This document shows positions 1 through 49,505 of a stretch of 64,000 bases of DNA, piece by piece. The stretch covers positions 59,252 through 123,251 of the forward strand of contig JBFMGR010000001.1 of the NCBI GenBank assembly GCA_040753135.1, written 5' to 3'. The translations under genes and the position numbers were made by a program. The stretch comes from Patescibacteria group bacterium (GTDB lineage: Bacteria; Patescibacteriota; Minisyncoccia; UBA6257; Brennerbacteraceae). How positions within the stretch are numbered: position 1 is the stretch's first letter; every line of letters begins with the position of its first letter. A model generated the notes under the pieces. That model was not told where the DNA came from, made no database searches, and saw nothing but the letters and a program-made list of their open reading frames with translations.

Positions 1-821
1 AGGCAAGCGCTTTGGATAAAAAATTGTTTGACTATGATTCCTTGCAGGCGCGAGATGTAACTATGCGCAAGGTTGATATATTGACGAAAAAAGAGGAAGC
101 AAAAGAAGTGCTGGAATTTCCCTATGCTGACAATCCGCAGATGTATATTGCAAGCATTACTAACGCTGTTTTGAGATTTGCGAGAATCCCCGGGCATTTT
201 GACAAAGTCGCGCCGGAAGTCAAAGAATATATCGCGCAACATCTTTTCGGTAAAAAAGTTGACATTGCCAAACTTGAAACGCTGAAAAAACTTAATCACC
301 CCAAAGTGCGCGGCGCGATTGTTTCTGTTTTTGTTGACGCTATCAATAATTTGACGATTGTATCCGAGGAAGCGAAACTGGAAGAACGCAAAATGCGAGC
401 GTCCGAGATTAAACCGTTTCCGTGGACAAAAACAGCGGTGGCGGCGCAAAAATCCGTTTTGAACTTTACGCCCGTTGATAATGACTTTGAAGCAAAGTTT
501 GTGCGGTTTCTTGATGGCGCAACCGATGTTGACGCTTTTATCAAAAACGAAACAAGAACAATCAATCTAAAAATCTCCTATATCGCCAAGGACGGATTTT
601 TGCGTCGCTATATTCCGGACTTCATCGTCAAGATAAAAAGTGGTATGGTGATTGTAGAAACGAAAGGGCGGGAAGATGTGGACGTGGCGGCAAAGGATTT
701 ACAGGGCAAACGATGGGTTGACGAGGTAAGCAGGCGCACGAGAACAAAATGGACGTTTTTGCGCGTTAACCAAAGGGAATTTGAGAAAGCGAGGTATACT
801 AGGTTGATTGATTTAATATAG
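1..821 (+). CDS. C-terminal fragment of a restriction endonuclease subunit (type III Res-like; PD-(D/E)xK nuclease domain). The 5' end is truncated by the window start. The listed ORF begins at a TTG, but the frame is open back to position 3.
   Basis: Motif YIPDFIVKIK…VIVETKGRE matches a PD-(D/E)xK catalytic core. The reading frame stays open to the window edge. Confidence 0.4.
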   Translation, partial: ASALDKKLFDYDSLQARDVTMRKVDILTKKEEAKEVLEFPYADNPQMYIASITNAVLRFARIPGHFDKVAPEVKEYIAQHLFGKKVDIAKLETLKKLNHPKVRGAIVSVFVDAINNLTIVSEEAKLEERKMRASEIKPFPWTKTAVAAQKSVLNFTPVDNDFEAKFVRFLDGATDVDAFIKNETRTINLKISYIAKDGFLRRYIPDFIVKIKSGMVIVETKGREDVDVAAKDLQGKRWVDEVSRRTRTKWTFLRVNQREFEKARYTRLIDLI

Positions 822-838
822 AACCAATTTATATAATT

Positions 839-1339
839 ATGGATCCGGAAAATATCTTAAAAGGCAGAATGGCCGAGGCGCTGGTGAGCGAGATTTTGCG
901 CGAGGCAGGTAATCAGGTTTATCGTTTTGGCTATGAATCAATTTTACAGAACTTAACTCAAGTTGAAAAAGTTTTTGACAGAGAAACCGAGATTGGGGAG
1001 AAAATTCGTTCAATTCCGGATTTATTGGTGATTAACAAAGAAGGCAGGCCGTTCTTTATTGAGGTTAAATTTCGCTGGCAGCAAAAATGGCACGAAAATG
1101 ATTTCAAAATGTTGAAACGGCTGGAGAATTTTTGGGAGCCAATCATTGTTTTTGTAAATTGTTATGAAAAACCATATTTTCTTATTATCAAGGCGCCTTA
1201 TTATGATAAAAACAAAAAGCTGAAGGGTTTGCCGTTAGAAGAAACTAATTATTTTAATATCTCTAAAAGCGTTATTAAAAATTATAATGTTTTGGTGGAA
1301 AAATATTTGACCCCAACACTGAATAAAAATTCAGCATAA
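839..1339 (+). CDS. Hypothetical PD-(D/E)xK-type nuclease (Hjc/restriction-endonuclease-like fold).
   Basis: IPDLLVINKEGRPFFIEVKFR fits a D…E-x-K nuclease motif. The N-terminal GRMAEALVSEILREAGNQV helix resembles Hjc-like resolvases. Confidence 0.35.
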   Translation: MDPENILKGRMAEALVSEILREAGNQVYRFGYESILQNLTQVEKVFDRETEIGEKIRSIPDLLVINKEGRPFFIEVKFRWQQKWHENDFKMLKRLENFWEPIIVFVNCYEKPYFLIIKAPYYDKNKKLKGLPLEETNYFNISKSVIKNYNVLVEKYLTPTLNKNSA

Positions 1340-1709: not shown

Positions 1710-1727
1710 ATAAAATAAATATTAAAA

Positions 1728-1763
1728 TAACATTCCAACATTCTTAAGAATGTTGGAATGTTA
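1728..1763. terminator. Perfect palindrome taacattccaacattcttaagaatgttggaatgtta. It could act as a bidirectional terminator and/or an operator. This is copy 1 of 3.
   Basis: The perfect inverted repeat is read directly. It lies between the convergent ORF 1344–1709 (+) and the ArsR gene (−). Confidence 0.5.
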
Positions 1764-2028
1764 TTATGAATTTGACAAGCTCGTGGCCGTAAGGGGAAAG
1801 TGAATGTAATACGTTTCGCCCCTGATATTTTTTATTAACCAGCCCTGCTTGAACTAGTCTTCTGGTATGCTCGGAAATAGTTTTGATGTTGCAATTTAAT
1901 CTGTCTGCGATTTCTTCTACAGTTATCCCTTCAGTATTTTTGATCAATAATAGAATTTCAATCCGCCTGTGGTTCGCGATTCCTTTAAAATGCCGTTCTA
2001 ATTGTTTGCTTGTTTTAATTTTCTCCAT
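1744..2028 (-). CDS. ArsR/SmtB-family HTH transcriptional regulator. The listed ORF extends to a TTG at 2064, but the ATG at 2028 (MEKIK…) is the likelier start.
   Basis: HRRIEILLLI…ITVEEIADRLNCNIKTISEHTRRLVQAGLV is a typical ArsR winged-HTH signature. Confidence 0.7.
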   Translation of the reverse strand: MEKIKTSKQLERHFKGIANHRRIEILLLIKNTEGITVEEIADRLNCNIKTISEHTRRLVQAGLVNKKYQGRNVLHSLSPYGHELVKFIITFQHS

Positions 2029-2046
2029 AATTAAGATTATACAATG

Positions 2047-2080
2047 ATATTCCAATATTCTCAAGAATGTTGGAATGTTA
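2047..2080. promoter_or_regulatory. Copy 2 of the attccaa(c/t)attct(c/t)aagaatgttggaat palindrome, sitting in the promoter/5' region of the ArsR gene. It is a candidate autoregulatory operator.
   Basis: Near-perfect inverted repeat (1 mismatch) immediately upstream of the ArsR start codon. Confidence 0.4.
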
Positions 2081-2131: not shown

Positions 2132-2195
2132 GTCGGGTCGGGGAGAATCGCTCCGTTAGGCAACGGGGCGCCCTGTCGCCTGACAGGGCGAACTC
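2132..2195 (-). other. Orphan 3' piece of tRNA-Pro: GAGTTCG, two hairpins, then ATTCTCCCCGACCCGACA (T-loop 3' half, T-stem and acceptor 3' strand).
   Basis: Identical, apart from one base, to the hairpin-containing segment at 2592–2640. It ends with the tRNA-Pro acceptor 3' strand. Confidence 0.6.
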
Positions 2196-3525: not shown

Positions 3526-3926
3526 AATGATAAATGATGAATGATGAATTATGAATTAAGAGTGATGAATTAGGGAGTTTTGAGAATTATTAATAATATA
3601 CTTTAAATTAGGGGAATAATCAAGGAGCAATCTCTAATATACCAATCTGGGCAAATATACAAATTTAGCAGCGCGTTGCTTTATTATTTATAAATCCATT
3701 AAGAATTTAAATTCGCAAATTGAAAACTGCAAATTAAATTAATTTTAATTTATGCCCCGTTGTTGGAAACTCATCTGTATGGCGGGATAGGGTTTTATTG
3801 CTTCATTGCTTCATTGCTCTGTCCTACCAATTTACTAATCAATACTAATTATACTAATAAATTCATTGGTAGATATTAGCAACAATTGGTAAATTAGTGG
3901 GGCTCTATTAAAAATAATCTCGCTTC

Positions 3927-3959
3927 GTCTCGTTATGCGAGATTTAGCGTAGCTACGAC
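3927..3959. repeat. 33-nt element gtctcgttatgcgagatttagcgtagctacgac. An inverted, near-identical copy lies at 46304–46336.
   Basis: Direct comparison: the reverse complement of 46304–46336 differs at 2 positions. It contains the nested palindromes tctcg…cgaga and gtagctac. Confidence 0.6.
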
Positions 3960-4038
3960 GAGATCCGATAAAGCCAGAAAAATTGAAAGCTGCTTAGAAA
4001 TTAGGAATTGGAAATTGGGAATTATGCTATAGTATTTT

Positions 4039-5313: not shown

Positions 5314-5443
5314 GGTTACTAATATACTAATTTGTACCAATAACTACTTATTTATAAATTATAAATCTTTGTGGAAGAATTAATTAGTTCAGGCCTATTA
5401 GTATAATTAGTATTGATTAGTAAATTGGTAGGCGATTTATACT

Positions 5444-28220: not shown

Positions 28221-28287
28221 ATTTGTCAAGAGTTCGCAATTTAACAATTAGGAATTAGAAATTGGAAATTAGGAATTATTTATTGGC

Positions 28288-28878
28288 ATGTATTCGCCTT
28301 CAATTGAACAGATAAAAGAATTAAGACAGGCGACTTTGGCGCCGATGATGAAGTGCAAAGAAGCTTTGGTTGCTTCAGCCGGAGATTTTGAAAAAGCAGT
28401 TGCTTGGCTGAATGAAAAGGGAGCGATTAAGGCCGCAGCTAAATCAGAGCGTTCTGTTGGCGCCGGATTGATCAATGCTTATATCCACAATGGCGGCCAA
28501 GTTGGCGTTCTTTTAGACTTGCGCTGTGAAACTGATTTTGTTGCCAGAAACCAGGAGTTTAAAGACCTGGCCCATGAAATTTGCCTTCAGATTGCCGCGG
28601 CTTCGCCCAGATGGGTTTCATCGGAAACCGTTCCCGAAGACGAGATTAAAGAGAAAAAGCAAGCTTGGCTAAAAGAGGCTGAAGCTTTGGGCAAGCCCAA
28701 AGAAGTAGCGGAGAAAATTGTCCAAGGAAAACTGGATAGTTTTTACAAAGAAACCTGCCTTTTAAACCAGCCCCATTTTAAAAACGAGGAAGAAACAATT
28801 AATGACTTGATTGTCAAAACAGTGGCCAAATTGGGCGAGAACATAAAGGTAGGGAAATTTGTCCGTTTTGAAATATGA
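28288..28878 (+). CDS. tsf: Elongation factor Ts.
   Basis: IKELRQATLAPMMKCKEAL…LRCETDFVARN. Confidence 0.85.
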   Translation: MYSPSIEQIKELRQATLAPMMKCKEALVASAGDFEKAVAWLNEKGAIKAAAKSERSVGAGLINAYIHNGGQVGVLLDLRCETDFVARNQEFKDLAHEICLQIAAASPRWVSSETVPEDEIKEKKQAWLKEAEALGKPKEVAEKIVQGKLDSFYKETCLLNQPHFKNEEETINDLIVKTVAKLGENIKVGKFVRFEI

Positions 28879-30840: not shown

Positions 30841-31332
30841 TTTTAAATCCAAAATTCCAATAACCAAAATTTTTAGCTACGGGTTGATTCGCTTTTAGCA
30901 GACAATTTTCAGATAATTCTAAAAGCCCAAAATTTAAAAAATGTTTAAATGAAAACAGGGGCGCCATTGGCACCCCTGATGTTTTTTCGCCCGGGAGTGT
31001 AATTTCTGCCCCCGGGCATTAGACGCGTGGGCAACCCGAGACTATGTCTCGGGTTGCCCGATCAGTATATTTATTATAGCAAGAAAAAATACCGCTGTCA
31101 AACGCAGGAATAGTTCAATTTAGGATTTCTTAATTTATTGAAGTCTCACTTCAATAAATTGTTTTCCGCGTCTAAAGAAGTCGGGCTTCTAAAACTAGGT
31201 CTTTATGGAAACCAATATGTTTCTGAACTTATGCAGATTTTAAGATATCAATATCGCTGGTCTTTAAGAATATTTTAAGATTTGTGGATTTATTTAGAAA
31301 TTAGATATTAGGAATTAGATATTGCCAACGCT

Positions 31333-31944
31333 TTATCTTCTTGAAGTTAAGGCGTTGGTTAGGGTGTCTTCATCAGCAAACTCTATCTCCGCGCCCCTGG
31401 GCAGACCCAAACCCAAACGGGTGATTTTTAGATTAAATGGCGAGAGAAGTTTTTCCAGTTCCATCGCAGTCAGATCTCCTTCAGCAGTATGGCTTAATCC
31501 CAAAACCAGCTCTTTGATAGAAGAATCGTTTTTCAGCCGCTCCAACAGCTCTTTGATTCTTATCTCTTGGCCATTGCTCTTTTTTAAGGGTGAGAACAAG
31601 CCGCCTAAAATAAAATAAAGCCCTTGATATTTTTTAGTTTTTTCCAAACTAATTAAGTCAGTCTCTTTTTCAACCAGAGTTAAGATGGTTTTGTCCCGGC
31701 TTGGATTACGGCAAATCTGGCAGAAGTTAAGCCGGTTGGGGCCAGAGTTTGGTTCGAAAACAAAAAAACATTTAGGACAGATAGCGGTTTTATCGGCTAA
31801 ATCCTTTAAGGCAAAAGCATAAGAATAAATAAGGTTTTTGTTTTTCTTCAAAAACCAGAAAGCAATCCTCTGGGCCTGTCTTGGTCCAATACCCGGGATT
31901 TTGGAAAACGACTCAATGAATTTTTTTAATGAATCCGGGAGCAT
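31333..31944 (-). CDS. recR: Recombination protein RecR.
   Basis: FSKIPGIGPRQAQRIAFWFL; C4 zinc finger; Toprim. Confidence 0.85.
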   Translation of the reverse strand: MLPDSLKKFIESFSKIPGIGPRQAQRIAFWFLKKNKNLIYSYAFALKDLADKTAICPKCFFVFEPNSGPNRLNFCQICRNPSRDKTILTLVEKETDLISLEKTKKYQGLYFILGGLFSPLKKSNGQEIRIKELLERLKNDSSIKELVLGLSHTAEGDLTAMELEKLLSPFNLKITRLGLGLPRGAEIEFADEDTLTNALTSRR

Positions 31945-32089
31945 AAAAAATGAATTATGAATAATGAATAATGAATTATGGAATTAAGATAGATTTTAGA
32001 GCCAAAATCTAAAATCTACGTTTTATTGTTATGTCCTCCCGCCAATTTACTAATAATTGGTAAATCAACAGGGTTTTATTGGAAATTGT

Positions 32090-40962: not shown

Positions 40963-40997
40963 GATGAATAAATCCTAATTTTCAATTTACAATTTCT

Positions 40998-41036
40998 CTG
41001 CCAGAGGCAGATCCGCCTTTGGCGGACAATTTCCAG
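40998..41036. repeat. ggcggatccgcc-family double-hairpin element (variant gcagatccgcctttggcggacaatttccag), copy 1 of 5.
   Basis: Shares a core with 45584, 46859, 48588 and 49468. Confidence 0.5.
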
Positions 41037-42336: not shown

Positions 42337-42545
42337 TGAATCAGGAATGATGAATTAATCTCCTTAATATTTTATCAGCGAATAGCGGATTTATACGAAT
42401 AAATGAATGAAATAAATCAAAAGTCAAAATGACAGATTAAAATGTAAAAAAATCTCAAAATTTGAAAAAATTTAAACCTCTGAAAATTGAAATATTGAAA
42501 ATTCATTGAAAATTGAAAATTAGAAATTAGAAATTCTTTAGGTTT

Positions 42546-43283
42546 ATGCTAGACACCACCCATGTTTTAACTGGTTTGGTTATTGGCAAGTATCTGAAAA
42601 ATCCTATCTTGGCTTTTGGCGCTGGAGTTTTGTCCCATTTTGTTTTAGACGCCATTCCTCATTGGGATGGAACAAAGACGCTTAATGCGTCTTTGTTCCG
42701 AAGCGAAGCGAAGGTGGGAGAAAAGACTTTTTCAAAGTCTTTTCTCCGCAGTGAGGCGAGCGAAGAAACAAAGAGAGCTGGCGTAGCTTTGTTGCGAGCC
42801 GAACAAGGTGGAACAAAGACGCTTAATGCGTCTTTGTTCCGAAGCGAAGCGGAGGTGGAAGGAAAGACGCTTAATGCGTCTTTGTTCCGAGCGGAGCGAG
42901 ATGGAGAAGGGGGGCTAAATGATGCTGAATGCCGAATAAGATTCACCCGAGAGGGCAAGATTATTTTAGGCCTAGATATCTTAATCAGTTTGATTATTTT
43001 TTTATTTCTATCAATCAAAGGCCCGCTCTGGCCCGATTTTCCTAACCCTAATTCGTTATTCATCATTCTTCATTCTAATTTGTCCTGGGTTGCCGGAGTT
43101 TTTGGCGCTTTATTGCCGGACATTTTATTATTGGCTTATATTTTTTATCCTTCAGCCAAATTAAAAAAGCTTTCTGTTTTTGAATTCCATAAAAATATCC
43201 AAAGAAAAATTCCAATGATTCCGGGGTTGGTCTTTCAGTTAATCTGGATTAGTTTTTGCTTGTATTTTTTTGTTTTATCTTGA
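42546..43283 (+). CDS. YdjM/DUF457-like membrane-bound metal-dependent hydrolase, carrying an in-frame ~75-aa hairpin-repeat insertion.
   Basis: N-terminal HVLTGLVIGKYL…SHFVLDAIPHWD and C-terminal GALLPDILLLAY motifs; the middle is encoded by the tandem hairpin array. Confidence 0.5.
   Translation: MLDTTHVLTGLVIGKYLKNPILAFGAGVLSHFVLDAIPHWDGTKTLNASLFRSEAKVGEKTFSKSFLRSEASEETKRAGVALLRAEQGGTKTLNASLFRSEAEVEGKTLNASLFRAERDGEGGLNDAECRIRFTREGKIILGLDILISLIIFLFLSIKGPLWPDFPNPNSLFIILHSNLSWVAGVFGALLPDILLLAYIFYPSAKLKKLSVFEFHKNIQRKIPMIPGLVFQLIWISFCLYFFVLS
42669..42890. repeat. Array of five ~45-bp units, each holding a perfect hairpin (for example ggaacaaagacgc-ttaat-gcgtctttgttcc), embedded in-frame in the ydjM-like gene.
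   Basis: Units 1, 4 and 5 are near-identical. Units 2 and 3 differ in sequence but stay palindromic, i.e. the changes are compensatory. Confidence 0.7.
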
Positions 43284-43673: not shown

Positions 43674-43785
43674 TGGCAAAATTCCCAACTCCCAAATTTC
43701 AATTTCCAATTCTCATTGATTTATCAACCTTATATGTTTGGGAATTGTAAAATTGTAAATTTATTGAAAATTAAAAATTGTAAAA

Positions 43786-45441
43786 TTGAAAATTATGAGT
43801 AAGCAAATTTTATACAAAGATAAAGCTAGGGAGGCGTTAAAAAAAGGTGTTGATAAAGTCGCCAATGTGGTTAAAGTGACTTTAGGCCCAAAAGGCAGAA
43901 ATGTAATTTTAGACAAAAGCTATGGTTCGCCAATAATTACCAAAGACGGCGTTACCGTGGCAAAAGAGATTTCTTTGGAAAATAAACTGGAAAATATTGC
44001 GGCTGAATTGGTTAAGGAAGCAGCCCAGAAAACCGCTGATATTGCTGGAGATGGCACCACGACTGCGGCGCTTTTGGTTCAGGCAATTGTCAATGAAGGA
44101 TTTTCTCAAGTTGCTTCCGGATCTAACCCGGTGCTTTTGAAGAAAGGAATCGACAAAGCTTTGGCAAAAGTTTTAGAGATGTTGTCAGAGCAAAGCGTAA
44201 AAATAGAGGATAAGAAAAAAGTTGAAGAAGTTGCCTCAATCTCGGCGAATAACGATCCGGAAATCGGCAAGCTGATTGCCGAGGTGTTTAATGAGATTGG
44301 CAAAGAAGGCGTGGTTACGGTTGAGGAATCCCAAACCTTAGGTTTGTCTCGGGAAACCGTTGAGGGTCTTCAGTTTGACCGGGGCTATGTTTCTCCTTAT
44401 ATGATTACTGACGCAGAAAGAATGGAAGCGGTTTTGGAAGATCCCTATATTCTGATTACTGACCAGAAAATCTCGGCTATGAACGAGCTTTTGCCGGTTC
44501 TGGAAAAGATTATCCAATCGGGCAAAAAGAACATTGTTTTGATTGCTGAGGACATAGAGGGTGAAGCTTTGGCGACTCTGGTGGTCAATAAGCTTCGCGG
44601 CACTTTTAATGCTTTGGCAATTAAAGCGCCCGGGTTTGGCGACAGAAGAAAAGAGTTGCTGGAAGATATTGCCGCGATTACTGGGGGCAAGCTGATTTCT
44701 CCAGATCTTGGCTTAAAACTGGAAGGCGCAGATTTAAATATGCTTGGCCAGGCCCATCGAGTGGTGGCTAATAAAGACAACGCCACGATAGTTGGCGGCA
44801 AAGGCGAAAAAAACAAAATTGAAGAAAGAATCAAACAGATTCGTTCGCTTTTAGAAAAGTCAGAATCAGAGTTTGACAAAGAAAAATACGAAGAAAGGCT
44901 GGCCAAGCTCTCCGGCGGCGTGGCAGTGATTAAAGTCGGCGCCGTGACCGAAACCGAAATGAAAGAGAAAAAATTCAGGATTGAAGACGCGATTCATGCG
45001 ACTCGGGCAGCCCTGGAAAGTGGGATTGTTTCTGGCGGCGGCGTGGCTTTGTTTGATATCAGCCGCGAGTTGAGAAAGAACAAAGATAAGCTTTTTCCGG
45101 TTTTTGGCGACGAGAATCGGGGCGTGGAGATTGTTCTTCGAGCTTTGGAATATCCGATTAGAACGATTGCCGAGAATTCGGGCAAATCAGCAGAAGATGT
45201 GTTCAATACTTTGGTTAAAGAAGATAGAACCGGTTATGGCTTTAATGCTTTGACTGGCGAGTTTGTTGATATGATTGAAGCCGGGATTCTTGACCCAACC
45301 AAAGTGGTTAAATCAGCTATTTCCAATGCTGCTTCTGTGGCTGGGTTAATCTTAATCTCTGACGCGATCGTGGCAGACAAACCAGAAGAAAAAGACAAGC
45401 CAGAGATGCCCGGTGGCTATCCCGGCGGAGAAGATTATTAA
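43786..45441 (+). CDS. groEL: Chaperonin GroEL.
   Basis: AGDGTTTA motif; C-terminal GGM-like tail; 551 aa. Confidence 0.95.
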   Translation: MKIMSKQILYKDKAREALKKGVDKVANVVKVTLGPKGRNVILDKSYGSPIITKDGVTVAKEISLENKLENIAAELVKEAAQKTADIAGDGTTTAALLVQAIVNEGFSQVASGSNPVLLKKGIDKALAKVLEMLSEQSVKIEDKKKVEEVASISANNDPEIGKLIAEVFNEIGKEGVVTVEESQTLGLSRETVEGLQFDRGYVSPYMITDAERMEAVLEDPYILITDQKISAMNELLPVLEKIIQSGKKNIVLIAEDIEGEALATLVVNKLRGTFNALAIKAPGFGDRRKELLEDIAAITGGKLISPDLGLKLEGADLNMLGQAHRVVANKDNATIVGGKGEKNKIEERIKQIRSLLEKSESEFDKEKYEERLAKLSGGVAVIKVGAVTETEMKEKKFRIEDAIHATRAALESGIVSGGGVALFDISRELRKNKDKLFPVFGDENRGVEIVLRALEYPIRTIAENSGKSAEDVFNTLVKEDRTGYGFNALTGEFVDMIEAGILDPTKVVKSAISNAASVAGLILISDAIVADKPEEKDKPEMPGGYPGGEDY

Positions 45442-45480
45442 AAAGAGGGCAAAGCTTATAGATTTAAGATTTAAGAAAAC

Positions 45481-45520
45481 AATATTCCAACATTCTTGAG
45501 AATGTTGGAATATTGTTTTT
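45481..45520 (+). terminator. Copy 3 of the palindrome aatattccaacattcttgagaatgttggaatatt followed by ttttt; the groEL terminator.
   Basis: Perfect 15-bp stem plus T-run, 40 nt after the groEL stop. Confidence 0.6.
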
Positions 45521-45583
45521 AAGAGATGATCTTGTAAATTTGCTTCTTAAGTAATAAAATGGGCTTTATGCCAGAGTAGTTTC

Positions 45584-45617
45584 TGCCAGGGGCGGATCCG
45601 CCCTTGGCGGGCAGTGT
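45584..45617. repeat. ggcggatccgcc double-hairpin element, copy 2.
   Basis: ctgccaggggcggatccgcccttggcgggcagtg. Confidence 0.5.
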
Positions 45618-46259: not shown

Positions 46260-46303
46260 GCCACTTGGCGGAATTTTCAATTGTTCTGACTTCACCAGAT
46301 TTT

Positions 46304-46336
46304 GTCGTAGCTACGCTAGATCTCGCATAGCGAGAC
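46304..46336. repeat. Inverted copy of the 33-nt element at 3927–3959.
   Basis: Reverse complement matches with 2 mismatches. Confidence 0.6.
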
Positions 46337-46452
46337 ATAGCGAGACAATTTTCAATTTTCAATGGAATTGGCTTGTTTTAAGTTTTGTTTTATAATACTG
46401 TTTAGAATTAAAAGTTAGTAATTACTAATTAGAAATTAGGAATTATTCCCTT

Positions 46453-46523
46453 GGGGGCTTGGTGTAGTGGTAACACAACGGTCTCCAAAACCGTTGACGA
46501 GGGTTCGATTCCTTCAGCCCCTG
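46453..46523 (+). tRNA. tRNA-Trp (anticodon CCA).
   Basis: Acceptor GGGGGCT/AGCCCCT, anticodon loop CTCCAAA, T-arm GAGGG-TTCGATT-CCTTC. Confidence 0.75.
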
Positions 46524-46528
46524 CTTTA

Positions 46529-47269
46529 ATGTTTAATAACTTCTCTACCAACCAAGAATTAGTTGGTCATTTGAAATCTATCGGGGTTTTGAAAACTCCT
46601 CTGATTATCTCTGCGTTTGAAAAGATTGACCGGAAAGATTTTGTCCCCAAACAGTTTGAAAATGAAGCTTATGGAGATTATCCTTTGTCAATTGGTCAAG
46701 GTCAGACGATTTCCCAACCCTACACCGTGGCATTTATGCTGGAGTTATTACAACCTCAGCCAGGAGAAAAAATCTTAGATATTGGTGCTGGGTCAGGATG
46801 GACTACCGCTCTTTTGGCTTATATAATAAGCCAACAAGGCAGCACCAATTACCAATTACTCCGCCGGGGGCGGATCCGCGCTTGGCGGACAATTTCCAAA
46901 GAAATCCCAATATCCAATAATCAAAATGAATTAGGCAAGGTTTATGCGATAGAAGTTATTCCAGAATTATGTGAATTTGGAGCGCAAAATTGCAACAAGT
47001 ATAAATTTGTCTCTGATGGGGTAGCTAAGTTTTTTTGCCAGGACGGGAATCTGGGTTTAAAAGATTACGCTCCTTTTGACAAAATTTTAGCCAGCGCCGC
47101 TTTAAGCAAAAAAGAGCTGCCCCAGGCTTGGAAAGACCAGCTGAAGGTTAGGGGCAGGATTGTCTGCCCAATAATGAATAGCATTTTTGTTTTTGATAAA
47201 ATAAAACAAGATAAATGGCAAGAAGAAGAGCATTACGGCTTTAATTTTGTACCGCTGGTGAAGAGGTAA
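46529..47269 (+). CDS. pcm: Protein-L-isoaspartate O-methyltransferase, with an in-frame insertion derived from the ggcggatccgcc repeat.
   Basis: GQTISQPYTVAFMLELL…ILDIGAGSGW methyltransferase motif I. The insertion LRRGRIRAWRTISKE is encoded by 46859–46900. Confidence 0.7.
   Translation: MFNNFSTNQELVGHLKSIGVLKTPLIISAFEKIDRKDFVPKQFENEAYGDYPLSIGQGQTISQPYTVAFMLELLQPQPGEKILDIGAGSGWTTALLAYIISQQGSTNYQLLRRGRIRAWRTISKEIPISNNQNELGKVYAIEVIPELCEFGAQNCNKYKFVSDGVAKFFCQDGNLGLKDYAPFDKILASAALSKKELPQAWKDQLKVRGRIVCPIMNSIFVFDKIKQDKWQEEEHYGFNFVPLVKR
46859..46900. repeat. ggcggatccgcc double-hairpin element, copy 3, lying inside pcm.
   Basis: ctccgccgggggcggatccgcgcttggcggacaatttccaaag. Confidence 0.55.
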
Positions 47270-49443: not shown

Positions 49444-49467
49444 TTTTCAATTTTCATTGAATTTTCC

Positions 49468-49505
49468 CGTCAGGGGCGGATCCGCCTCTGGCGGGCAATG
49501 ATTCA
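49468..49505. repeat. ggcggatccgcc double-hairpin element, copy 5.
   Basis: ccgtcaggggcggatccgcctctggcgggcaatgattc. Confidence 0.5.

What the first reader, a model, noticed from the sequence alone, without database searches (positions are those of the whole stretch)
1728..2080. Thrice-repeated perfect palindrome attccaacattcttgagaatgttggaat flanking an ArsR-family regulator and closing groEL
Copies lie at 1728–1763, 2047–2080 and 45481–45520.
Copies 1 and 2 bracket the ArsR/SmtB-family gene. Copy 2 overlaps its promoter and start region, where it could be an autoregulatory operator; ArsR-family dimers bind 12-2-12-type inverted repeats.
Copy 1, and copy 3 (which is followed by TTTTT right after groEL), look like intrinsic terminators.
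Either one transcription factor binds both its own gene and the groEL 3' region, or the palindrome is a reusable terminator cassette spread by duplication.
Basis: partly seen in the sequence, partly recalled or inferred. Interest (0 to 1): 0.5.

Follow-up and report, generated by a model that had tools for sequence, protein, structure and literature searches.

The report
Mobile palindrome with its own repressor
The three palindromes are copies of a short, widely conserved DNA element that appears to be the binding site of the small repressor gene it brackets; elsewhere the same element has copied itself to gene ends and even, in frame, into essential genes, a pairing I could not find described.

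Summary
In detail: there are three copies, against none expected by chance.

**What the element is.** It is a four-box palindrome, ACATTC-NN-ACATTCT-NN-AGAATGT-NN-GAATGT. It occurs in more than 120 public contigs, mostly Patescibacteria, with some labelled Verrucomicrobia or Kiritimatiellia.

**Link to the gene.** The only gene consistently next to it is the 94-aa ArsR/SmtB-fold gene at 1744-2028(-).
- In 80 metagenomic loci chosen by the protein alone, 76 carry the element upstream and 72 downstream.
- In 52 of those 72, the palindrome centre falls on the stop codon.

**The three copies.**
- Copy 2 covers the -35 and spacer of a leaderless promoter, which points to autorepression.
- Copy 1 encodes TFQHS plus the stop codon and folds like a terminator.
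- Copy 3 occupies the slot where relatives carry unrelated groEL terminators.

**Evidence of spread.** The boxes stay invariant while the spacers drift, so the constraint looks like protein binding rather than a hairpin. Lone ("solo") copies avoid divergent promoter regions and cluster near the gene. About a fifth of them lie in frame inside housekeeping genes. One PGK gene carries a 45-nt insertion that its closest relatives lack. The element has therefore been copied into new places, as REP or RPE repeats are, but its partner is a repressor-type protein, not a transposase.

**Not established.** Binding, termination and the copying mechanism are all untested.

The parts
1726..1765 (.). Copy 1 (the gene's 3' element; core boxes 1730-1761). 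It is a perfect palindrome. Its left arm on the minus strand encodes the last five codons TFQHS, and the centre holds the TAA stop of the winged-helix gene. On the minus strand it forms an 18-bp hairpin with a T-rich tail.
   Evidence: Sequence. RNA fold -23.3 kcal/mol, z -8.0. Flagged as terminator-like on the minus strand. In 52 of 72 homologous loci the element centre coincides with the stop codon. Homologs end in TFQHS, TFSHS or TFQYS.
1744..2028 (-). The 94-aa ArsR/SmtB-fold winged-helix gene (MEKIKTSKQLERHFKG...TFQHS*), the presumed binding protein of the element.
   Evidence: Pfam MarR 40.3 bits and HTH_5 32.7 bits, both above cut-off. AlphaFold2 pLDDT 88 with topology a1-a2-a3-aR-b1-b2-a5. 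Best PDB folds are CadC, HlyU, CzrA and SmtB, TM 0.73-0.85. 1410 homologs at E<=1e-5, the best 120 at 67-81% identity.
2036..2064 (-). Predicted sigma-70 promoter of the winged-helix gene: -35 TTGAGA (2064-2059, the centre of copy 2), 17-nt spacer, -10 TATAAT (2041-2036). The ATG follows 7 nt later, which predicts a leaderless mRNA.
   Evidence: 11 of 12 consensus matches. A -10 hexamer at offset +21 or +18 from the element centre occurs in 66% of 74 upstream sites, and is absent at downstream and solo sites.
2047..2078 (.). Copy 2 (upstream element, the operator). It has four boxes with one arm mismatch and covers the -35 and spacer of the promoter.
   Evidence: On the transcribed (minus) strand the hairpin is weak (-10.5 kcal/mol, z -1.6), which fits a double-stranded DNA operator better than an RNA hairpin. 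76 of 80 protein-selected loci have an element at this position.
45475..45520 (.). Copy 3 (solo element; core 45482-45513). Its hairpin starts 33 nt after the groEL stop and is flanked by AAAA and TTTTT. It occupies the groEL terminator slot.
   Evidence: RNA fold -26.9 kcal/mol, z -8.4. Four syntenic relatives (GroEL 83-89% identical) carry unrelated G+C-rich hairpins in the same slot, followed by T-rich tails where the contig allows it to be seen.

Best explanation
**What it is.** The three palindromes are copies of a 32-45 bp DNA element built from four GAATGT-type boxes: ACATTC-NN-ACATTCT-NN-AGAATGT-NN-GAATGT. It is the presumed binding site of the 94-aa ArsR/SmtB-fold protein encoded between copies 1 and 2. 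The unit [element]-promoter-leaderless gene-[element] is conserved across Patescibacteria and occurs on some contigs labelled PVC.

**How it most likely works (all steps inferred).**
1. Dimers, probably two per site as reported for SmtB on 12-2-12 operators, bind the boxes on double-stranded DNA.
2. At copy 2 this occludes the -35 and spacer, so the gene represses itself.
3. Copy 1 supplies the last codons and the stop codon. It acts as the gene's terminator and as a second binding site.
4. Copy 3 is a dispersed solo copy that has taken the place of the groEL terminator. There it acts as a hairpin terminator and possibly as a protein roadblock.

**How it spreads.** Solo copies arise by copying of the element into new places: gene ends, arrays next to the repressor gene, and in-frame positions inside housekeeping genes. 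The family therefore behaves like REP/RAYT or Rickettsia palindromic elements. The difference is that its dedicated protein is a repressor-type DNA binder, not a transposase.

**Shown versus inferred.** Shown: conservation, linkage to the gene, positions, promoter overlap, and insertions relative to homologs. Inferred: binding, repression, termination, and how the copies are made.
For: **Real and conserved**
- Three copies against none expected by chance.
- Box positions are invariant in 130 sites.

**Linked to the protein**
- The winged-helix family is the only family enriched next to motif-selected sites: 14 of 87 start-facing genes, the rest at most two each. There is no enrichment among 100 end-facing genes.
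- In 80 loci selected by the protein alone, 76 have an upstream element and 72 a downstream one. In 52 of the 72, the element centre falls on the stop codon.
- Distant paralogs carry a different palindrome at their own upstream position, and the L052 paralog has it at both ends.

**Operator role**
- The window promoter matches consensus at 11 of 12 positions, with the -35 at the element centre.
- A -10 hexamer lies at +21 or +18 from the element centre in 66% of upstream sites. By inspection of the listed sequences, +21 goes with centre CTTGAG and +18 with CTCAAG. No such signal exists at other sites.
- Boxes are invariant while the spacers vary and are often not complementary: stems are perfect in only 38-50% of sites.

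**Fold**: ArsR/SmtB.

**Terminator slot**
- Relatives carry unrelated terminator-like hairpins after groEL.
- Solo sites are depleted between divergent genes (3 of 60, p=0.009) and enriched between convergent genes (18 of 60, p=0.007).

**Mobility**
- About 20% of solo sites lie inside long ORFs. Ten were checked against Pfam, and nine are recognisable housekeeping or repair genes (PGK, FBA, TsaD twice, GltX, 6PGD, UvrC, a Mur ligase, a glycosyltransferase).
- 19 of 20 are read in the frame HSNIL[QKE]NVGM.
- They appear as insertions of roughly 6-30 aa relative to homologs, most often 13-19.
- One PGK has exactly 15 extra aa (a 42-nt perfect palindrome plus 3 nt) that its 7 closest relatives, 69-75% identical, lack.
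- The copy in that PGK shares its CACAAC/GTTGTG flanks with the operator copy of the same metagenome-assembled genome.
Against: - No binding, repression or termination has been measured.
- Only 26% of downstream sites and 10-54% of solo sites have a T4 tract, so most copies are not canonical intrinsic terminators.
- No transposase or recombinase is enriched nearby, and there is no target-site duplication. The copying mechanism is therefore unknown.
- Copy density is low, about 0.01-0.02 per kb away from the gene, unlike REPs.
- The protein scores just below the NCBIfam ArsR/SmtB cut-off (51.5 against 55) and has no conserved sensor residues.
- The purpose of binding at solo sites that lack a promoter is unexplained.
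- Gene calls in the public loci are my own simple ORF calls.
Confidence: 0.65

Rival explanations
1. A classical regulon. The ArsR-like protein is an ordinary transcription factor, and every palindrome is an operator controlling a nearby promoter, for example a stress regulon that includes groEL.
For: - The site is conserved across phyla in the way the CIRCE or LexA operators are.
- Some neighbours are stress or repair genes: DnaJ twice, a hibernation factor, RecG three times, DinB, and LexA nearby.
- Neighbours within 2.5 kb of the gene are richer in nucleases, helicases and restriction-modification genes than those beyond 4 kb.
Against: - Solo and downstream sites lack the -10 signal seen at upstream sites.
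- Among solo sites with both neighbours assigned, 30% lie between convergent gene ends and 5% between divergent starts. About 20% of all solo sites lie inside ORFs.
- No gene family recurs beyond what chance predicts for about 100 sites.
- Copy 3 lies after groEL, not before groES, and relatives have no such site.
Confidence: 0.1
2. A plain family of intrinsic terminators spread by duplication. The neighbouring regulator gene is unrelated, and only hairpin formation is under constraint.
For: - The hairpins are strong (-23 to -27 kcal/mol).
- Copy 1 is flagged as terminator-like.
- Copy 3 replaces a terminator.
- Solo sites favour gene ends.
- Complementarity extends beyond the conserved core at position 18 (54% against a baseline of about 27%).
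Against: - The link with one gene family is near-universal in loci chosen by the protein alone.
- Boxes are invariant while the spacer positions inside the stem are often mismatched.
- Identical sequence in different phyla is not expected of terminators.
- Upstream copies overlap a promoter and, in the window, fold poorly on the transcribed strand.
- Most copies lack a T tract.
Confidence: 0.05
3. Recombination-site cassettes, like integron attC sites or Xer pdif modules. The palindromes would be crossover sites for a recombinase encoded elsewhere. Genes flanked by two sites, including the winged-helix gene, would move as modules, with the protein acting as an accessory factor.
For: - The layout can be read as 11-6-11 or 13-2-13, with a variable centre.
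- The upstream and downstream centres of a cassette match, in the same orientation, in 55 of 69 cases.
- Co-directional SITE-gene-SITE-gene arrays lie next to the gene.
- Neighbourhoods vary and resemble defence islands.
- The protein is 60-80% identical between Patescibacteria and a Kiritimatiellia contig.
Against: - No integrase or Xer family appears among the 25 commonest families of 146 neighbouring genes.
- In-frame copies inside essential genes and lone copies such as copy 3 are not cassette boundaries.
- The matching centres are also explained by promoter and stop-codon needs plus shared descent.
Confidence: 0.07
4. A chromosome-organising protein-site pair, in the manner of ParB/parS, Noc, MatP/matS or a replication terminator such as RTP or Tus with Ter sites. 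The gene would be autoregulated through a nearby site.
For: - Each genome has few copies, and they are highly conserved and dispersed.
- Sites cluster around the protein's own gene.
- From memory: the tus and rtp genes are autoregulated through adjacent Ter sites, and ArsR-like AspA binds a palindromic centromere upstream of its own gene.
Against: - GC skew does not change sign anywhere in the window, although it holds three sites.
- A symmetric site cannot act as a polar replication barrier.
- No partner ATPase gene is linked.
- Recent insertions into coding sequences point to copying rather than to placed landmarks.
Confidence: 0.08

Closest known systems
ArsR/SmtB-family autorepressors with 12-2-12 operators (SmtB, CzrA, CadC, HlyU)
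   Same: - Same fold (TM 0.73-0.85) and small size.
- A long inverted repeat (here 13-2-13) overlaps the gene's own promoter.
- From memory, SmtB binds a 12-2-12 repeat as two dimers, which would fit four boxes.
   Different: - No conserved metal- or thiol-sensing residues, and a score below the NCBIfam family cut-off.
- No regulated partner gene.
- A second operator is fused to the stop codon in most family members.
- The operator also exists as dispersed copies at gene ends and inside genes.
REP / REPIN elements and their RAYT genes
   Same: - Short palindromes dispersed mainly outside genes.
- The gene for the associated protein is flanked by two copies of its own palindrome. [quoted passage not shown]
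- Different protein lineages carry different palindromes.
   Different: - The associated protein is an ArsR-fold DNA binder, not an HUH tyrosine transposase.
- Copy number is low (about 0.01-0.02 per kb), against more than 100 copies per genome for REPs.
- The element spans several phyla.
- Copies occur in frame inside genes.
Rickettsia palindromic elements (RPE) and other MITEs that insert in frame
   Same: Palindromic repeats are inserted in frame into unrelated metabolic genes and add a conserved peptide (RPE: PMC10969869; here HSNIL[QKE]NVGM). No transposase is known for either.
   Different: - RPEs are about 150 bp, confined to Rickettsia, and have no known dedicated binding protein.
- This element is 32-45 bp with no terminal-repeat-plus-duplication structure.
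- It has a presumed partner repressor gene and occurs across Patescibacteria and on some PVC-labelled contigs.
IS1 InsA-type arrangement (from memory)
   Same: A protein of about 90 aa binds the inverted repeats at the ends of its own element. One repeat overlaps its promoter, so the protein represses itself.
   Different: - There is no transposase reading frame next to the winged-helix gene.
- Each end of the cassette is a complete palindrome rather than a single terminal repeat.
Terminator-like repeats: uptake-sequence pairs in Neisseria and Haemophilus terminators (from memory) and the pneumococcal terminator-like element SPRITE (named in PMC10969869)
   Same: Sequence-specific repeats, recognised or copied as such, occupy the stems of terminators at many gene ends.
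   Different: - Those occur in hundreds to thousands of copies and are tied to DNA uptake or to nothing known.
- Here the copy number is low and the partner is a cytoplasmic repressor-type protein.

Membership tests
ArsR/SmtB family of winged-helix repressors | Fold a1-a2-a3-aR-b1-b2-a5 | tested here: met
   AlphaFold2 model with pLDDT 88 and exactly this order of elements. The top 25 PDB matches are all CadC, HlyU, CzrA, SmtB or SqrR, with TM 0.71-0.85.
ArsR/SmtB family of winged-helix repressors | Passes the curated sequence-profile thresholds | tested here: inconclusive
   Pfam HTH_5 scores 32.7 bits against a cut-off of 22, and MarR 40.3 against 24.6. NCBIfam NF033788 scores 51.5 bits, below its cut-off of 55.
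ArsR/SmtB family of winged-helix repressors | Conserved inducer-sensing site (a3N cysteines or a5 His/Asp) | tested here: not met
   The single Cys46 is replaced by G, K, S or R in homologs. The a5 residue His82 is variable. There is no CxC motif.
ArsR/SmtB family of winged-helix repressors | Binds an inverted repeat overlapping its own promoter (autorepression) | not testable with these tools
   The sequence arrangement fits: a 13-2-13 repeat over the -35 and spacer, conserved in about two thirds of 74 loci. Binding itself was not measured.
Rho-independent (intrinsic) terminators | Stable stem-loop followed directly by a T tract at a gene's 3' end | tested here: inconclusive
   Copy 1 is flagged on the minus strand. 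Copy 3 has a -26.9 kcal/mol stem followed by TTTTT and sits in the groEL terminator slot. Across the family, however, TTTT follows only 26% of downstream sites and 10% of metagenomic solo sites, and 54% of genome-set solo sites have a T or A tract on one side.
Rho-independent (intrinsic) terminators | Constraint on pairing, not on sequence | tested here: not met
   Boxes are invariant across phyla, while stem positions 9 and 10 pair in only 63-70% of sites and only 38-50% of stems are perfect.
REP/REPIN-RAYT systems | The gene of the associated protein is flanked by two copies of the dispersed palindrome | tested here: met
   76 of 80 loci have the element upstream and 72 of 80 downstream. The paralog in L052 is flanked at both ends by a different palindrome, and three further paralogs have one upstream.
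REP/REPIN-RAYT systems | The associated protein is an HUH/Y1 (IS200/IS605-like) transposase | tested here: not met
   The protein has the ArsR/SmtB fold and gives no transposase-family hit above threshold.
REP/REPIN-RAYT systems | High copy number (of the order of 100 or more per genome) | tested here: inconclusive
   Density is about 0.01-0.02 per kb beyond 2 kb from the gene, and the window has 3 copies in 64 kb. No complete genome was available for a full count.
Rickettsia palindromic elements / in-frame MITEs | Palindromic repeat inserted in frame in unrelated protein-coding genes | tested here: met
   Nine recognisable genes have Pfam matches, in most on both sides of the site. 19 of 20 sites are in one frame. 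The sites are insertions relative to homologs.
Rickettsia palindromic elements / in-frame MITEs | MITE anatomy: terminal inverted repeats around an internal region, with a target-site duplication | tested here: not met
   The whole element is one 32-45 nt palindrome. Direct repeats of 2-5 nt at its edges occur no more often than in permuted controls.
Integron attC / Xer pdif modules | A linked tyrosine recombinase and arrays of site-bounded cassettes | tested here: not met
   Arrays exist, but no integrase or Xer family appears among the 25 commonest families of 146 neighbouring genes.
HrcA-CIRCE type heat-shock operator of groESL | An inverted repeat upstream of groES, conserved with the operon | tested here: not met
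   The site lies downstream of groEL and is absent from four syntenic relatives. Cpn60 is not among the recurrent neighbour families listed.

The most novel reading that the evidence does not exclude
This would be an undescribed kind of partnership between a protein and a genomic element. A miniature palindrome that is nothing more than a repressor operator copies itself around small Patescibacteria genomes. It replaces terminators and inserts in frame into essential genes. A dedicated ArsR-like protein, whose own gene is bracketed by the element, either mobilises it, polices it, or uses the scattered copies as roadblocks. Such roadblocks would throttle transcription of core genes such as PGK, FBA, TsaD, GltX, the Mur ligases and groEL. 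In effect this would be a mobile operator network.
Probability: 0.3. Interest if true: 0.85.

Novelty: new variant of a known kind. Interest (0 to 1): 0.7.

Why it matters
- **Gene regulation in Patescibacteria.** These bacteria have tiny genomes, few regulators and almost no experimental genetics. A strongly conserved regulator-like gene (homologs 67-81% identical) with a sharply defined 32-bp site gives a directly testable regulatory unit.
- **Mobile DNA.** The data link three things usually treated apart: an autoregulated repressor, terminator hairpins, and selfish palindromes inside coding genes. If the protein binds the dispersed copies, this would be a natural case of operator sequences spreading as mobile DNA. 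It would also offer a way into how RPE-like in-frame insertions arise, which remains unknown.
- **Annotation.** Gene callers read through CTGCAG-centred copies and extend the protein. In-frame copies add a recurring 10-aa peptide to enzymes.

Tried and rejected
- **Heat-shock or groEL regulon:** rejected. The site is absent from groEL relatives and there is no chaperone enrichment.
- **Phage origin:** no match in 2.9 million viral contigs.
- **Known RNA family:** Rfam at gathering threshold finds only tRNAs in the window. At relaxed E-values only spurious microRNA hairpins appear.
- **Replication terminus:** GC skew stays positive across the whole window.
- **DNA looping with helical phasing:** upstream-to-downstream spacing runs mostly 299-402 bp (one locus at 503), with no periodicity at 9-12 bp.
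- **Hairpin more perfect at terminator-position copies than at operator copies:** not found (43%, 38% and 50% perfect; Fisher tests not significant).
- **Target-site duplication:** none at fixed or adaptive boundaries. The AGA repeat around the PGK insertion is probably coincidence.
- **Conserved operon partner of the gene:** none. The largest neighbour clusters have 4-5 members among 80 loci. Window ORFs 839-1339 and 1344-1709 each recur next to a family member only once.
- **Defence-system membership:** PADLOC gives only generic Csa3/CARF helix-turn-helix similarity.
- **T-tract orientation relative to the upstream gene:** inspection of the flanks gave no consistent direction.
- **Literature:** no paper contains the motif or the inserted peptide as a text string, and keyword searches found nothing relevant.
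- **Look-up of the exact protein's contig:** failed.
Full report
**1. The observation**

The window holds exactly three copies of the palindrome, with cores at 1730-1761, 2047-2078 and 45482-45513.
None of 100 dinucleotide-preserving shuffles gave a match.
- Half-sites and the central 14-mer occur nowhere else above chance.
- Copy 1 is a perfect palindrome (centre CTTAAG). Copy 3 is perfect except for its centre, CTTGAG. Copy 2 has one arm mismatch.
- As RNA, copies 1 and 3 fold at -23 to -27 kcal/mol on both strands (z about -8).
- Copy 2 folds well only on the plus strand. On the minus strand, which is the strand transcribed through the tRNA-Pro and the winged-helix gene, it reaches only -10.5 kcal/mol (z -1.6).

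**2. The gene between copies 1 and 2**

The ORF 1744-2028(-) encodes 94 aa.
- Pfam places it in the winged-helix families: MarR 40.3 bits, HTH_5/ArsR 32.7 bits, both above cut-off.
- The best solved-structure relatives by sequence are HlyU, ArsR, CadC and CzrA.
- An AlphaFold2 model (pLDDT 88) has the a1-a2-a3-aR-b1-b2-a5 order. Its best fold matches are all ArsR/SmtB proteins, with TM 0.73-0.85.
- NCBIfam's ArsR/SmtB model scores 51.5 bits, just below its cut-off of 55.
- The usual sensor residues are not conserved.
- The stop codon TAA (1744-1746) is the centre of copy 1, so the last five codons, TFQHS, are the palindrome's arm.
- The scan finds a promoter, TTGAGA-17-TATAAT, matching consensus at 11 of 12 positions. 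Its -35 is the centre of copy 2 and its -10 ends 7 nt before the ATG, which predicts a leaderless mRNA.

**3. The element is conserved far beyond this genome**

- Of the 80 titles shown, most are Patescibacteria (Saccharibacteria, Paceibacterota and many candidate phyla). Twelve are labelled Verrucomicrobia, Kiritimatiellia, Omnitrophota, Bdellovibrionales or Gammaproteobacteria. At least two of the Kiritimatiellia loci come from contigs with 59% G+C.
- In 130 sites the flanks outside the search pattern are also conserved. The consensus is AA-N-AACATTCCAACATTCT-NN-AGAATGTTGGAATGTT-N-TT.
- There is no match in 2.9 million viral contigs and no Rfam family.
- No paper contains the motif string.

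**4. The link to the winged-helix gene**

- Among genes whose start faces a motif-selected site, the winged-helix family is the only recurrent one: 14 of 87, with every other family at two or fewer.
- Genes whose end faces a site show no enrichment.
- The reverse test is cleaner. Of 80 metagenomic loci chosen only because they encode a relative of the protein, 76 have the element just upstream and 72 just downstream. In 52 of the 72, the palindrome centre coincides with the stop codon.
- Homologs at 67-81% identity end in TFQHS, TFSHS or TFQYS.
- Distant paralogs carry a different palindrome at the upstream position. In L052 it is TCTATTCCAGTGTTTTGCAAAACACTGGAATAGA, present at both ends and again encoding the C-terminus.
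- This co-variation of protein and flanking palindrome is the best available evidence, short of an experiment, that the protein recognises the element.
- The family has 608 representatives at 50% clustering with E<=1e-3, and 120 with E<=1e-10.

**5. Anatomy and what is under constraint**

- In the protein-selected set, positions 2-6, 8 and 11-14 from the centre are essentially invariant in upstream, downstream and solo copies.
- Positions 9-10 vary (CA, TC, TA, TG, CG) and pair between the arms in only 63-70% of sites. Only 38-50% of stems are perfect, with no difference between the three classes.
- The element is therefore four boxes, ACATTC-NN-ACATTCT-NN-AGAATGT-NN-GAATGT. The constraint is on the boxes, as expected for a protein site on double-stranded DNA, and not on a hairpin.
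- Some selection or bias for palindromy beyond the boxes does exist. Position 18 carries 0.13 bits of information yet pairs in 54% of genome-set sites and 70% of metagenomic solo sites, against a baseline of about 27%.

**6. Upstream copies are operators**

- In 74 upstream copies, a -10 hexamer lies at offset +21 (39%) or +18 (27%) from the element centre on the gene side. It is often preceded by TGn.
- By inspection of the listed sequences, +21 goes with centre CTTGAG (-35 TTGAGA) and +18 with centre CTCAAG (-35 TTCTCA).
- The signal is absent on the far side of the element, and absent at downstream and solo copies.
- The start codon typically follows the -10 by 6-8 nt.
- A protein on the boxes would cover the -35 and the spacer. 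Autorepression is inferred from this, not shown.

**7. Downstream and solo copies**

- *Terminator slot.* In four syntenic relatives (GroEL 83-89% identical), the slot after groEL holds unrelated G+C-rich hairpins, followed by T-rich tails where the contig allows it to be seen. The window has copy 3 there, flanked by AAAA and TTTTT. Copy 3 therefore sits where a terminator is expected.
- *Position relative to genes.* Solo sites are depleted between divergent genes (3 of 60 against a 17% background, p=0.009) and enriched between convergent genes (18 of 60 against 16%, p=0.007).
- *T tracts.* Only 26% of downstream copies and 10% of metagenomic solo copies are followed by TTTT. Most copies are thus not canonical intrinsic terminators.
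- *Clustering.* Solo copies are 5-10 times denser within 2 kb of the gene (0.10-0.18 per kb) than further away (0-0.02 per kb). They often form co-directional SITE-gene-SITE-gene arrays.
- *Neighbours.* Genes within 2.5 kb are richer in ResIII/DEAD helicases, PD-(D/E)XK nucleases, PIF1, DNA methylases, LexA, NUDIX and RadC than genes more than 4 kb away. In the window, the ORF at 12-821 is the end of a restriction endonuclease.

**8. The element is copied into new places**

- Twenty-two of about 100 solo sites in the genome set lie inside long ORFs.
- Ten of these were checked against Pfam. Nine are recognisable genes, most with domain matches on both sides of the site: PGK, class II aldolase, TsaD in two genomes at different positions, GltX, 6-phosphogluconate dehydrogenase, UvrC, a Mur ligase and a glycosyltransferase.
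- In 19 of 20 cases the element is read in the same frame, giving HSNIL[Q/K/E]NVGM. The always-open frame IPTFxRMLEC is never used.
- Alignments show the peptide as an insertion of roughly 6-30 aa relative to homologs, most often 13-19.
- The Brennerbacteria PGK carries exactly 15 extra residues, RPQHSNILQNVGMLW. That is 45 nt: a 42-nt perfect palindrome plus 3 nt. Its seven closest relatives, 69-75% identical, lack the insertion.
- That copy shares its CACAAC/GTTGTG flanks with the operator copy of the same metagenome-assembled genome.
- The centre dinucleotide type is largely genome-specific. It matches between the two ends of a cassette in 55 of 69 cases.
- A 32-nt exact site cannot arise by point mutation inside a coding sequence, so copies are made and inserted.
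- No target-site duplication was found. No transposase or recombinase is enriched nearby.

**9. Best explanation and its limits**

- The three palindromes are copies of a mobile, four-box operator-like element. Its presumed protein is the ArsR/SmtB-fold repressor encoded between copies 1 and 2.
- Copy 2 is the autoregulatory operator. Copy 1 is the gene's 3' element, serving as coding end, stop codon, terminator-like hairpin and second site. Copy 3 is a solo copy in the groEL terminator slot.
- Shown: conservation, linkage, promoter overlap, box-level constraint, terminator-slot replacement, and in-frame insertions.
- Inferred: binding, repression, termination or roadblock, and the way copies are made.
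- Unexplained: what the protein does at promoter-less copies, why a single reading frame is tolerated, and why copies pile up next to the gene.

**10. Comparison with known systems**

- The protein works like an ArsR/SmtB autorepressor and shares the fold. It lacks the sensor sites, a regulated partner gene, and the NCBIfam threshold score.
- The gene-flanked-by-its-own-palindrome layout and the dispersed copies match REP/RAYT (PMC2817692). However, the protein is not an HUH transposase and copy number is low.
- The in-frame copies match Rickettsia palindromic elements (PMC10969869). Those are about 150 bp, confined to one genus, and have no known binding protein.
- I found no description of this pairing.
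- I rate it a new variant of known kinds, with a 0.3 chance that it is something more: operators that spread as mobile DNA under a dedicated protein.

Noticed in passing
window 2133-2152, 2233-2307, 2298-2642, 2632-2696: tRNA-Pro(GGG) on the minus strand has two partial copies. One is a 98% identical copy of its 5' 56 nt plus 9 upstream nt at 2632-2696. The other is a copy of its 3' 20 nt at 2133-2152. A small GIY-YIG ORF lies between the full tRNA and the 5' copy. This looks like a GIY-YIG gene inserted at the tRNA with duplication of the target.
   Followed up: partly
window 30871-30907, 40995-41031, 45580-45616, 46858-46894, 49464-49500; L203 upstream of tRNA-Thr: A second, G+C-rich palindrome family, CCGCCAGGGGCGGATCCGCCYTTGGCGG, has five copies. 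One lies in frame inside the PCMT ORF 46451-47269, giving the peptide LLRRGRIRAWRTI. The copy before tRNA-Thr is also present before tRNA-Thr in a relative.
   Followed up: partly
window 42546-43283 (ORF), repeats at 42668-42748 and 42809-42889: A membrane-protein-like ORF carries several in-frame copies of a third palindrome, GGAACAAAGACGCTTAATGCGTCTTTGTTCC, giving the repeated peptide GTKTLNASLFRSEA. This genome therefore tolerates at least three families of small palindromes inside ORFs.
   Followed up: partly
window, many intergenic regions (e.g. 2696-2740, 3528-3572, 28237-28294, 31943-31998, 42479-42538, 43737-43811): Intergenic regions are filled with 7-nt periodic repeats of the types GAATTAT, AGAAATT and TACTAAT, forming large direct-repeat families (D1-D6, D11, D12).
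   Followed up: no
window 3823-3859 / 5396-5432 and 3907-3988 / 46275-46356: Two long inverted repeats between distant places: one of 37 nt at 100% complementarity, 1.5 kb apart, and one of 82 nt at 83%, 42 kb apart (I3 and I1).
   Followed up: no
window 12-821; loci L121-L200 within 2.5 kb of the winged-helix gene: The ORF at the window start is the C-terminal part of a BPTD_3080-type restriction endonuclease. In other genomes the winged-helix cassette also sits among restriction-modification, nuclease, helicase, LexA and RadC genes more often than genes over 4 kb away do.
   Followed up: partly
L052 2-334 and flanks; L053, L024, L110 (second homolog); L165, L032, L004, L163, L073: Distant paralogs of the winged-helix gene have different ATTC/GAAT-containing palindromes upstream, and in L052 at both ends. 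Variant element subfamilies also exist, such as ACATCCTTACAAACTTGAGAATGTAAGGATGT. This suggests a diversified superfamily of protein-palindrome pairs.
   Followed up: partly
protein P0009 and other homologs longer than 94 aa; L054 4575: Where the downstream element has the centre CTGCAG there is no stop codon, and called proteins run on as ...TFQHSAECWNV.... The same peptide occurs inside a Kiritimatiellia ORF in L054. It is the one intragenic copy read in a different frame, and may be a remnant of a cassette end.
   Followed up: no
window 839-1339 and 1344-1709; L052 478-957; L169 423-788: The two small ORFs upstream of copy 1 each recur once next to a family member in another genome. The 166-aa ORF is 51% identical to one beside the L052 paralog. 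The 121-aa ORF is 49% identical to one beside the L169 homolog. Their function is unknown.
   Followed up: partly
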